DNA from: an uncultured Verrucomicrobiae bacterium
Lineage (GTDB): Bacteria > Chlamydiota > Chlamydiia > Chlamydiales > Rhabdochlamydiaceae
Reading direction: 5' to 3'
DNA: 64,000 nt
Assembly: GCA_963813135.1 (NCBI GenBank)
Contig: CAWEXY010000021.1
Location: forward strand, 128,001 to 192,000
Shown here one piece after another: positions 17,855 to 18,689 of this stretch. Made by a program: the position numbers and the translations under genes. Numbering within the stretch: the first letter of the stretch is position 1; every line of letters starts with the position of its first letter. Under the pieces are notes generated by a model that saw only the letters and a list, made by a program, of their open reading frames with translations, did not search any database and was not told where the DNA came from.

Positions 17855-17917
17855 CATAGTCCCCCACGGCGACTGTTGTGGGGAAGCTACGGGCTCCGGC
17901 CCGTAGCACGTTTTTAA
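17855..17917 (+). ncRNA. Structured double-hairpin RNA repeat, copy 1
   Basis: CCCCACGGC-GACU-GUUGUGGGG, then GCUACGGGC-UCCG-GCCCGUAGC, then a U-tract. Covaries with copy 2. Confidence 0.65.
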
Positions 17918-17924
17918 AGAAAAT

Positions 17925-17954
17925 TTGCAAAAAAATATCCCGTCTTTGTATAAT
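17925..17954 (+). promoter_or_regulatory. Sigma66/sigma70-type promoter between the two RNA repeats
   Basis: TTGCAA-18 nt-TATAAT. Predicted +1 at ~17961, the start of copy 2. Confidence 0.7.
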
Positions 17955-17959
17955 TATGT

Positions 17960-18022
17960 CATAGTCCCCCATGGTGACCCCATGGGGAAGCCACGGGCTC
18001 CGGCCCGTGGCACGTTTTTTAA
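17960..18022 (+). ncRNA. Structured double-hairpin RNA repeat, copy 2 (putative sRNA or attenuator leader)
   Basis: CCCCAUGG-UGACC-CCAUGGGG, then GCCACGGGC-UCCG-GCCCGUGGC, then U6. Lies between the promoter and the NYN gene RBS. Confidence 0.7.
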
Positions 18023-18032
18023 TAGGAAGTCT

Positions 18033-18689
18033 GTGAATCGTCAACGTGTCACCTCCTTTATAGATGGACTTAATCTTTATCATGCAATAGCAAGCCTTCA
18101 TCGCCCAGAATTGAAATGGACCGACTTAAGAGCCCTTTCAAAAGTATTTCTAAAATCACATTCTGAGGAACTTTCCCACGTATATTATTTTTCGGCTCAA
18201 GCAGAACATGTCGCGGAACAAACGCAAAAAAATCAAAAAGCTTATATTCAAGCTTTGAAACTTAGAGGTATAACACCTGTTCTCGGTTATTTCAAAAAAA
18301 GACATCGATGTTGTCCTTCCTGTGACCATCGATGGTTTGGACATGAAGAAAAAGAAACTGATGTCAACATAGCCCTTTTTCTTTTAGACCTTGCTTATCA
18401 GGATGCATTCGATCGAGCTCTTGTCATTTCAAATGATTCTGACCTTGCCCCTGCTATACAGATGGTTAGGAAGCGCTTTCCTAAAAAACGCATCACTACG
18501 ATTGCCCCTCTCCGTTACTATCATAGTATCGAACTCATCAATGCTTCTTCTGATAAAAGTAAGATCCGTGTTGAACATCTTGAGCGTTGTCCTCTACCTC
18601 TTGTTGTGGCTGATCCATCCGGCTTAATCTCCGTATCTCGACCCCATGAATATATGCCCTCTAACACCGCCTTCGCTTCAACACTATGA
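18033..18689 (+). CDS. NYN-domain (LabA/DUF88, PIN-like) predicted ribonuclease
   Basis: FIDGLNLY, EEKETDVNIA, VISNDSDLAP acidic motifs and a CPSC insert. GTG start preceded by AGGAAG. Confidence 0.88.
   Translation: MNRQRVTSFIDGLNLYHAIASLHRPELKWTDLRALSKVFLKSHSEELSHVYYFSAQAEHVAEQTQKNQKAYIQALKLRGITPVLGYFKKRHRCCPSCDHRWFGHEEKETDVNIALFLLDLAYQDAFDRALVISNDSDLAPAIQMVRKRFPKKRITTIAPLRYYHSIELINASSDKSKIRVEHLERCPLPLVVADPSGLISVSRPHEYMPSNTAFASTL

What the first reader, a model, noticed from the sequence alone, without database searches (positions are those of the whole stretch)
17855..18689. NYN-domain RNase preceded by two covarying structured RNA repeats: candidate new RNA-antitoxin (type III-like) or RNA-regulated nuclease system
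Seen: two ~63-nt direct repeats 105 bp apart (17855-17917, 17960-18022), each 5'-CAUAGUC, hairpin 1, AA, hairpin 2 with UCCG loop, ACG, U-tract. Differences between the copies preserve pairing: C-G to U-A and two G-U to G-C in hairpin 1, U-A to C-G in hairpin 2. Loop GAC and the 5' leader are conserved. A TTGCAA-18-TATAAT promoter puts +1 at the start of copy 2, whose U6 ends 12 nt before the GTG of a gene with intact NYN/PIN acidic motifs. Known: promoter, repeated RNA, terminator, RNase is the layout of type III TA loci (ToxIN, CptIN, TenpIN), whose toxins are not NYN-fold. Inference: an abundant short RNA that binds or inhibits the NYN nuclease, with read-through supplying the protein, possibly for defence or addiction. 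The conserved loop GAC is complementary to the conserved 5' GUC, hinting at a pseudoknot or RNA-RNA dimer contact (speculative, sterically tight).
Basis: partly seen in the sequence, partly recalled or inferred. Interest (0 to 1): 0.88.

Follow-up and report, generated by a model that had tools for sequence, protein, structure and literature searches.

The report
NYN nuclease with partner small RNA
The repeats are two copies of a roughly 60-letter, two-hairpin RNA gene, absent from Rfam, that sits beside a widespread family of mobile RNA-cutting enzymes and most likely holds the enzyme in check, making it a candidate new kind of toxin-antitoxin pair with an RNA antidote.

Summary
The repeats are copies of a ~60-nt RNA (short C-rich leader, two hairpins, U-tract) that starts just after a sigma-70-type promoter and has no Rfam match. 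The gene is an intact NYN RNase of PADLOC family HEC-09. The RNA lies directly upstream at 51 of 56 chlamydial loci and, by a model-free test, beside 99 of 125 distant loci (controls 7/116 and 16/900). Both helices covary.

The RNA is usually single, not repeated, and the proposed GAC/GUC pseudoknot is not supported. Three patterns argue against a plain terminator or attenuator: three-unit arrays, copies on the opposite strand, and intact promoter-plus-RNA orphans left after gene loss (15 of 49 hits).

Best reading (~0.6): a type III-like RNA antitoxin that binds the NYN protein, working like AbiF/RCd22 but belonging to no known family. Expression, toxicity and binding are untested. HEC-09 gave no phage defence when tested in print. 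Ten literature searches found no description of the pair. An earlier scan note (e1-4474043) mentioned in passing an NYN gene with its own antisense RNA on other DNA.

The parts
17820..17849 (+). Degenerate promoter-like site before copy 1 (TTGTTT-18-CTTGAT, 6 of 12), at the same spacing as the copy 2 promoter; probably decayed
   Evidence: position read
17855..17915 (+). RNA copy 1: leader 17855-17861, hairpin P1 17862-17883, AA linker, hairpin P2 17886-17907, U5 tract 17911-17915
   Evidence: model hit 63.3 bits
17925..17954 (+). Sigma-70-type promoter (-35 TTGCAA, 18 nt, -10 TATAAT) placing +1 at about 17960
   Evidence: same position in relatives
17960..18020 (+). RNA copy 2, the family-typical copy: leader 17960-17966, P1 17967-17987, AA linker, P2 17990-18011 (doubles as terminator stem), U6 tract 18015-18020
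   Evidence: model hit 76.4 bits
18021..18032 (+). 12-nt spacer with Shine-Dalgarno-like AGGA (18024-18027)
18033..18689 (+). NYN (LabA/DUF88, HEC-09 family) predicted RNase, 218 aa; invariant D11 N14 W29 E106 K107 D110 D135 D137 P204 and a near-invariant CxxC (94/97) on an inserted beta-hairpin

Best explanation
This is a two-part mobile module that works like a type III toxin-antitoxin pair with a new toxin fold and a new RNA fold. SHOWN (sequence level): a promoter starts a ~60-nt RNA (C-rich 5' leader, hairpin P1, 1-4 nt linker, hairpin P2, U-tract), and the NYN gene follows about 10-20 nt after the U-tract. INFERRED: most transcripts stop at the U-tract, so the short RNA is in excess and read-through supplies the NYN mRNA. 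The RNA binds the NYN protein through its conserved unpaired leader and the P1/P2 junction and keeps the RNase inactive. In array loci the NYN or a host RNase would cut units apart at the leader. Loss of RNA synthesis (phage shut-off, loss of the element) would free the RNase. Orphan RNA genes are antitoxins left after toxin loss, possibly giving immunity in trans. In this window copy 2 is the working copy and copy 1 is an older duplicate with a decayed promoter.
For: Linkage: 51 of 56 chlamydial NYN loci have the RNA directly upstream. In a 151-genome sample, all 13 NYN-positive genomes have the RNA against 1 of the other 138. In distant loci, 90 of 91 full-length model hits lie within 250 nt upstream of the NYN start. 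Structure: 95.9% of cells paired and 10 of 15 pairs with double-sided change in an unfitted alignment, 0 of 500 shuffles as high. An unpaired leader is conserved across distant loci. Promoter placement: 26 of 57 loci against 1-4 of 57 in shifted controls. Not only a cis element: 7 loci carry the RNA on the opposite strand; 8 loci carry 2-3 units, most without internal U-tracts. Loss asymmetry: of 49 hits of at least 40 bits, 15 are orphans and 9 head broken genes, with helices still 98% paired (fitted alignment, hits chosen by score). In G319 the open NYN gene has only an RNA remnant upstream, while the genome's single intact RNA heads a broken paralogue ~107 nt downstream. Mobility: homologues occur on 330 plasmid records, some only 3.5-5 kb, and on viral contigs; no flanking Pfam family recurs in more than 3 of 119 flanking ORFs, closely related loci included. 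Precedent for the layout: AbiF/RCd22 (PMC12373285) and ToxIN (PMC3401426).
Against: There is no direct evidence of expression, toxicity or binding. HEC-09 protected against none of the phages tested (10.1101/2024.01.29.577857, passages). G211 (92% complete) has an open NYN gene with the acidic residues and no model hit in its genome, though it is a very long branch with changes at H17, K28, W29 and E105. 26 of 125 distant loci failed the descriptor; many look like variants by eye, but the model does not reach them. There is no pseudoknot and usually no repeat array, unlike canonical type III systems. Accessory genes decay often in these genomes anyway, so broken NYN genes do not show toxicity. 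Orphans were picked by score, which favours intact ones, and some may be kept as promoters or terminators for neighbouring genes. In opposite-strand loci the RNA may overlap the NYN leader, which allows an antisense mechanism. Related genomes are not independent samples.
Confidence: 0.6

Rival explanations
1. Cis-only autoregulatory leader: the RNA is an attenuator or operator on the NYN mRNA that the protein binds or cuts to limit its own synthesis, and it does not neutralise the protein.
For: Most loci have the order promoter, RNA, terminator, SD, gene. The leader is C-rich and in many folds pairs with the SD region. AbiF's RNA also acts in cis (PMC12373285).
Against: Opposite-strand copies are not on the mRNA. 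Arrays repeat the unit without terminators. Orphans persist, including in 5 genomes where no NYN was found (84-99% complete). Leader-SD pairing is no stronger for cognate than for shuffled pairs (-1.49 against -1.65 kcal/mol). No alternative anti-terminator structure is conserved in the alignment.
Confidence: 0.15
2. The RNA is a cofactor, activator or sensor subunit of an NYN ribonucleoprotein, for example one that senses a phage product, rather than a plain inhibitor.
For: The same linkage, covariation and orientation data. Array units are non-identical but keep the same dimensions. There is precedent for protein-associated terminated RNAs of unknown role, the DUF3800 motifs (PMC5737381).
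Against: A cofactor should decay once the gene is lost, yet orphans stay structured. No variable single-stranded guide segment is present; the variation lies in stems and loops.
Confidence: 0.12
3. Base-pairing (type I-like) antitoxin: the RNA pairs with the NYN mRNA leader or ribosome-binding site.
For: In opposite-strand loci in-frame start codons can lie about 10-15 nt from the RNA 5' end, and the leader's complement can read like an SD. An earlier scan note called such an RNA antisense (e1-4474043, unchecked).
Against: In sense loci, including this window, the RNA is identical to the leader, not complementary to it. The RNA is almost wholly paired. There is no leader-SD covariation.
Confidence: 0.07
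4. The element is a generic promoter and terminator insulation or a DNA-level cassette end of a mobile gene, with no RNA function beyond termination.
For: P2 plus the U-tract is a standard intrinsic terminator. One orphan in this genome follows a GNAT toxin-antitoxin pair and lacks a good promoter.
Against: P1 and the unpaired leader are conserved with covariation. Only 16 of 900 control ORFs and 7 of 116 downstream windows pass the two-hairpin test. The model finds only 4 copies in 1.83 Mb. Internal array units lack U-tracts.
Confidence: 0.06

Closest known systems
AbiF / RCd22 system (Abi_2/AbiD-F HEPN RNase with abiF RNA motif, Rfam RF03085; PMC12373285)
   Same: Promoter, short hairpin RNA, terminator, RNase gene; short RNA in excess with read-through mRNA; mobile-element location; RNA acts in cis and in trans by binding the protein (shown for AbiF, inferred here).
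   Different: The toxin here is NYN/PIN fold, not HEPN; no abiF motif match; ~60 nt with usually one unit; also occurs on the opposite strand and as orphans.
Type III TA families ToxIN, CptIN, TenpIN (PMC3401426, PMC13682666)
   Same: Promoter set at the RNA start, terminator between RNA and RNase gene, arrays of non-identical units at some loci, plasmid and phage carriage.
   Different: ToxN has a MazF/Kid fold and its antitoxin is an H-type pseudoknot from tandem repeats; here the fold is NYN, the RNA is two hairpins with no pseudoknot signal, and the terminator stem is part of the conserved unit.
HEC-09 (PADLOC PDLC04163; 10.1101/2024.01.29.577857)
   Same: Same protein family: E 2e-49 for this protein, and 77 of 77 aligned homologues match; MARF1-like NYN fold.
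   Different: Described as a single-gene candidate with no defence activity and no RNA mentioned in the passages read; this locus sits between mfd and efp, not inside an Hma system.
DUF3800-I to -XI, drum and skipping-rope RNA motifs (PMC5737381)
   Same: Structured RNAs with 3' terminators tied to one protein family and found in either orientation; function unknown.
   Different: Different protein family; no Rfam match to those motifs here or in 18 distant loci.

Membership tests
Type III TA (ToxIN/CptIN/TenpIN) | Toxin homologous to ToxN/CptN/TenpN (MazF/Kid-like fold) | tested here: not met
   Pfam NYN; best Foldseek hits are VPA0982 and MARF1 NYN
Type III TA (ToxIN/CptIN/TenpIN) | Tandem repeat array upstream of the toxin | tested here: not met
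   Window copies are split by a promoter; 2 of 30 chlamydial loci have two copies; arrays seen in 8 of 160 distant loci
Type III TA (ToxIN/CptIN/TenpIN) | Intrinsic terminator between RNA and toxin gene | tested here: met
   (sequence pattern only)
Type III TA (ToxIN/CptIN/TenpIN) | Promoter positioned at the start of the RNA | tested here: met
   26 of 57 loci against 1-4 of 57 in controls
Type III TA (ToxIN/CptIN/TenpIN) | Antitoxin folds as an H-type pseudoknot | tested here: not met
   Leader-loop 1 pairing 11 of 96 against 17.5 shuffled, leader-loop 2 10 against 9.4, loop-loop 7 against 8.5
Type III TA (mechanistic class) | RNA binds and neutralises a toxic protein | not testable with these tools
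   Needs toxicity, rescue and co-purification assays; only indirect genomic signs here
AbiF / RCd22 | HEPN-fold Abi_2/AbiD-F toxin | tested here: not met
AbiF / RCd22 | abiF RNA motif RF03085 | tested here: not met
   No such Rfam match at E up to 10 in the window region or at gathering score in 18 distant loci
HEC-09 | Match to the HEC-09 profile with conserved NYN acidic residues | tested here: met
HEC-09 | Embedded in an Hma defence system | tested here: not met
   Neighbours are mfd, an LRR fragment and efp, named from the translations
Type I TA | RNA complementary to the toxin mRNA | tested here: inconclusive
   Not met in sense loci including this window; possible overlap in opposite-strand loci
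REP / dispersed repeat | Many copies across the genome regardless of gene | tested here: not met
   4 copies in 1.83 Mb; genome-level co-occurrence with NYN

The most novel reading that the evidence does not exclude
A widespread NYN-RNA ribonucleoprotein family forms a new structural class of RNA-antitoxin system. The NYN RNase cuts arrays of non-identical two-hairpin units at the C-rich leader, and arrays and orphan RNA genes act in trans as a library of antidotes against incoming NYN modules on plasmids and prophages.
Probability: 0.25. Interest if true: 0.93.

Novelty: new variant of a known kind. Interest (0 to 1): 0.8.

Why it matters
The RNA-binding antitoxin systems in the papers read use ToxN-type (MazF-like), HEPN (AbiF) or deaminase (AvcD) toxins. 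An NYN/PIN RNase held by a small two-hairpin RNA would add a new fold to that class. The protein family is large: 1,883 clusters at 50% identity score E up to 1e-10 (the RNA was checked only in the fetched loci), and homologues occur on 330 plasmid records. It would give a function to part of the NYN.COG1432 group, listed as function unknown (PMC5499597). It would also suggest why HEC-09, cloned with ~150 bp of native upstream DNA where possible, could be grown and looked inert: the RNA may have been co-cloned (Table S2 not seen). The RNA family itself is new to Rfam whichever mechanism holds. The test is a standard two-plasmid assay.

Tried and rejected
- Rfam: no relevant match. NCBIfam: no family.
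- GAC/GUC pseudoknot, leader-loop pairing and loop-loop kissing: rejected.
- Leader-SD covariation: not found.
- A conserved protein partner: none in 119 flanking ORFs; scattered DNA methylases and TA genes only.
- Sequencing runs: no RNA holder listed, so expression was not examined.
- One search used a wrong register for helix 2; it was discarded and redone. One search was a script error, redone.
- A control with NYN proteins from outside this clade was not obtained: 29 of 30 Pfam NYN hits in 301 genomes were loci already found with this protein. The other (L301) has no model hit at its NYN gene.
- The model does not reach the most distant plasmid and phage homologues (E 0.016 for L037, 0.22 for L045, none at the leader for L038, L040, L041, L042, L044, L046, L253, L255). 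Hairpin-plus-terminator leaders are visible there by eye, but I do not count them as members.
- The tree does not force more than one origin of arrays or of the opposite-strand layout.
- No complex prediction was run, because the tool cannot take RNA as the partner.
- Literature: ten searches listed no paper on an NYN-RNA pair. Supplements of PMC5737381 and PMC11109978 could not be read, nor those of the HEC-09 preprint, nor some files of PMC8040213 and PMC10690425; these may hold an anonymous version of the motif.

Full report
OBSERVATION. The two copies, their hairpins, the compensatory differences, the promoter at 17925-17954 and the 12-nt gap to the GTG at 18033 are all in the sequence as described. 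Each copy folds far better than its shuffles (z about -5.4). The module lies in a lower-GC stretch between mfd and efp (gene names from the translations, recalled). The genome is chlamydia-like, judged from the names of close protein matches. Rfam has no relevant match in 16800-18800 at E up to 10.

PROTEIN. The 218-aa product matches Pfam NYN (E 6.7e-12) and PADLOC HEC-09 (E 2e-49); 77 of 77 aligned homologues match HEC-09. D11, N14, E106, D110, D135 and D137 are invariant, and a CxxC is nearly so. The AlphaFold model (pLDDT 95.8) is closest to VPA0982 and the MARF1 NYN domain. The family is large (1,883 representatives at E up to 1e-10) and patchy (42 of 401 genomes in the phylum sample). 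It is also mobile: 330 plasmid records, 3 phage records and 99 viral-contig stretches. HEC-09 was cloned with about 150 bp of upstream DNA where possible and protected against none of the phages tested (10.1101/2024.01.29.577857, passages; supplements not seen).

THE RNA IS A FAMILY. The 58 matches are 56 distinct loci. In 51 the RNA lies directly upstream: 30 by pattern, 9 by model R1 and 12 more. The five others are G319 (below), G211 (no hit in a 92% complete genome; a long-branch protein with changes at H17, K28, W29 and E105), two internal gene fragments and one contig end. An unfitted alignment of 32 copies gives 95.9% paired cells, 10 of 15 pairs with double-sided change and 0 of 500 shuffles as high, with an invariant unpaired UCC before P1. 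In a 151-genome sample, model R2 hit 14 genomes: the 13 that have the NYN gene, and G036 (this assumes that sample is handles G000-G150, as the listed rows indicate).

DISTANT HOMOLOGUES. I fetched 80 metagenome and 80 viral loci at 24-70% identity. A model-free two-hairpin-plus-U test was applied after dropping 15 short or partial loci and 20 duplicates. It found the element on the sense strand in 97 and on the opposite strand in 2 of 125; 26 failed. Controls were 7 of 116 downstream windows and 16 of 900 ORFs sampled from 1,202 in this genome, one of them copy 1 itself. Of 91 full-length R2 hits in 463 kb, 90 lie within 250 nt upstream of the NYN start. R2 was partly trained on the metagenome loci, but all 32 full-length hits in the untrained viral set are also upstream. 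In the fitted alignment all 15 pairs show double-sided change (266 cells against 69 shuffled; this leans towards the model). Median stems are 8 and 9 pairs, the linker is 0-4 nt, and C is found at 81% and 85% of the two positions at the P1 base. A TTG-16..18-nAnnnT promoter ends 1-7 nt before the RNA in 26 of 57 loci, against 1-4 of 57 in shifted windows.

Two copies are the exception (2 of 30 loci), and copy 1 here has only a 6-of-12 promoter. The loop GAC occurs in 11 of 32 chlamydial copies, with a GUC leader in only 6, and in 2 of 96 distant ones. Leader-loop and loop-loop pairing do not exceed shuffles.

SIGNS OF AN RNA THAT ACTS IN TRANS. (1) Arrays. L106, L114, L180, L181, L182, L184 and L199 carry three non-identical units joined by short leaders with no U-tract until the last; L136 carries two, each with a U-run. 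Six of the eight form one clade. (2) Opposite strand. L137, L145, L161, L163, L212 and L220 have model hits on the other strand just upstream of the gene (E 2.7e-9 to 0.09), and L254 looks the same by eye. In L161 and L163 the hit covers the second and third of three hairpins. A TTGA-17 promoter is visible by eye on the RNA strand, but the strict pattern was met in only 1 of 5 tested (the L161 window was offset). In these loci the RNA cannot attenuate the mRNA, though it may overlap its leader in antisense. (3) Orphans. Of 49 family-level hits of at least 40 bits (58 at E up to 0.001 in 33 of 121 genomes), 23 head intact genes, 2 are upstream duplicates, 9 head broken or stub genes and 15 have no NYN downstream. 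Most keep a promoter-like site, and their helices are 98% paired. Two orphans are in this genome, one before a putA-like gene and one after a GNAT toxin-antitoxin pair. Five genomes with orphan RNA gave no NYN match (84-99% complete). (4) G319. An open NYN gene with its acidic residues has only an RNA remnant upstream, and the genome's single intact RNA lies ~107 nt downstream, heading a broken paralogue. This is a single case.

MECHANISM. The best reading (0.6) is a type III-like pair. The promoter makes an excess of short RNA, read-through makes the RNase, the RNA binds the protein through the leader and the helix junction, and loss of the RNA frees the enzyme. Shown here: layout, structure, linkage and loss asymmetry. 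Inferred: expression, toxicity, binding and processing. Rivals are a cis-only autoregulatory leader (0.15), a cofactor or sensor RNA (0.12), antisense control (0.07) and a generic terminator (0.06). Cautions: HEC-09 showed no defence; gene decay is common in such genomes and some breaks may be assembly errors; orphans were selected by score; relatives are not independent; no RNA holder was listed.

COMPARISON. The system works like AbiF/RCd22 (PMC12373285: abstract, one results section and passages) and like ToxIN, CptIN and TenpIN (PMC3401426 and PMC13682666, passages). It fails membership on toxin fold, pseudoknot, repeat array and RNA motif. The protein is a member of HEC-09 and probably of NYN.COG1432, listed as function unknown (PMC5499597, passages). 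The DUF3800 motifs are a precedent for terminated RNAs tied to one protein in either orientation (PMC5737381, passages).

NOVELTY. Ten searches listed no paper on this pair; the library lacks most subscription papers. Term searches of the main texts of PMC5737381, PMC11109978 and PMC8632094 found no NYN or LabA; two of their supplements were unreadable. The supplement of PMC10690425 lists two anonymous candidates within 25 bp upstream of PIN_NicB-like genes: DNAVirus_6258 (2 cases) and DNAVirus_9008 (1 case among 370 sequences) (sequences not seen). That this domain label covers the present family is recalled, though plasmid homologues carry the related HspA name. PMC8040213 lists NYN only among domains within 5 kb in the rows I saw. 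An earlier scan note mentioned an NYN gene with its own antisense RNA in a CPR genome; it is unchecked and not counted as support.

VERDICT. This is a real, widespread and apparently undescribed RNA-protein module, a new variant of a known kind, and directly testable. Interest 0.8.

Noticed in passing
G000:C13:76290-76350 (L005 3291-3351): Orphan copy of the RNA with a promoter-like site, between groES and a putA-like gene that is in several pieces; no NYN downstream.
   Followed up: partly
G000:C18:55629-55690, minus strand (L006): Orphan copy directly after a small antitoxin-like gene plus GNAT pair (TacAT-like, name recalled); weak promoter, may serve as that pair's terminator.
   Followed up: partly
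window 17233-17350: 118-nt palindrome-rich repeat with 23 full-length and 4 partial copies in this genome; looks like a MITE or REP-type element.
   Followed up: partly
window 16906-16941: Perfect 36-nt palindrome after mfd, with 3 copies in the genome.
   Followed up: partly
window 17293-17742: 149-aa leucine-rich-repeat fragment whose start overlaps the 118-nt repeat; absent between mfd and the NYN module in the same-genus genome G275.
   Followed up: partly
window 11112-13725: The alanyl-tRNA synthetase gene is split into two frames near 12674/12697; probably an assembly error or a frameshift.
   Followed up: no
L269 (G319:C1:2521600-2524100): Tandem NYN duplication: an open gene with a decayed RNA, followed by an intact RNA heading a broken gene; the only RNA hit in that genome.
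   Followed up: yes
L271 (G211:C39): Long-branch NYN with a C-terminal extension and no RNA hit in the genome; a candidate domesticated or inactive form.
   Followed up: partly
L228 1386-1436: Viral-contig locus with a TATA-like box and a weak two-hairpin hit (E 0.42); may be an archaeal member. The HEC-09 profile also rings in two archaeal control genomes.
   Followed up: no
L253 and L255, upstream of the NYN genes: Outgroup NYN genes also have two adjacent hairpins and a U-rich tail upstream, with a shorter first stem; not reached by the model. The phenomenon may extend beyond this clade.
   Followed up: partly
L038, L039, L040, L042: Homologues are among the few cargo genes on 3.5-4.2 kb ColE1-like plasmids, a convenient setting for a plasmid-stability test.
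   Followed up: no
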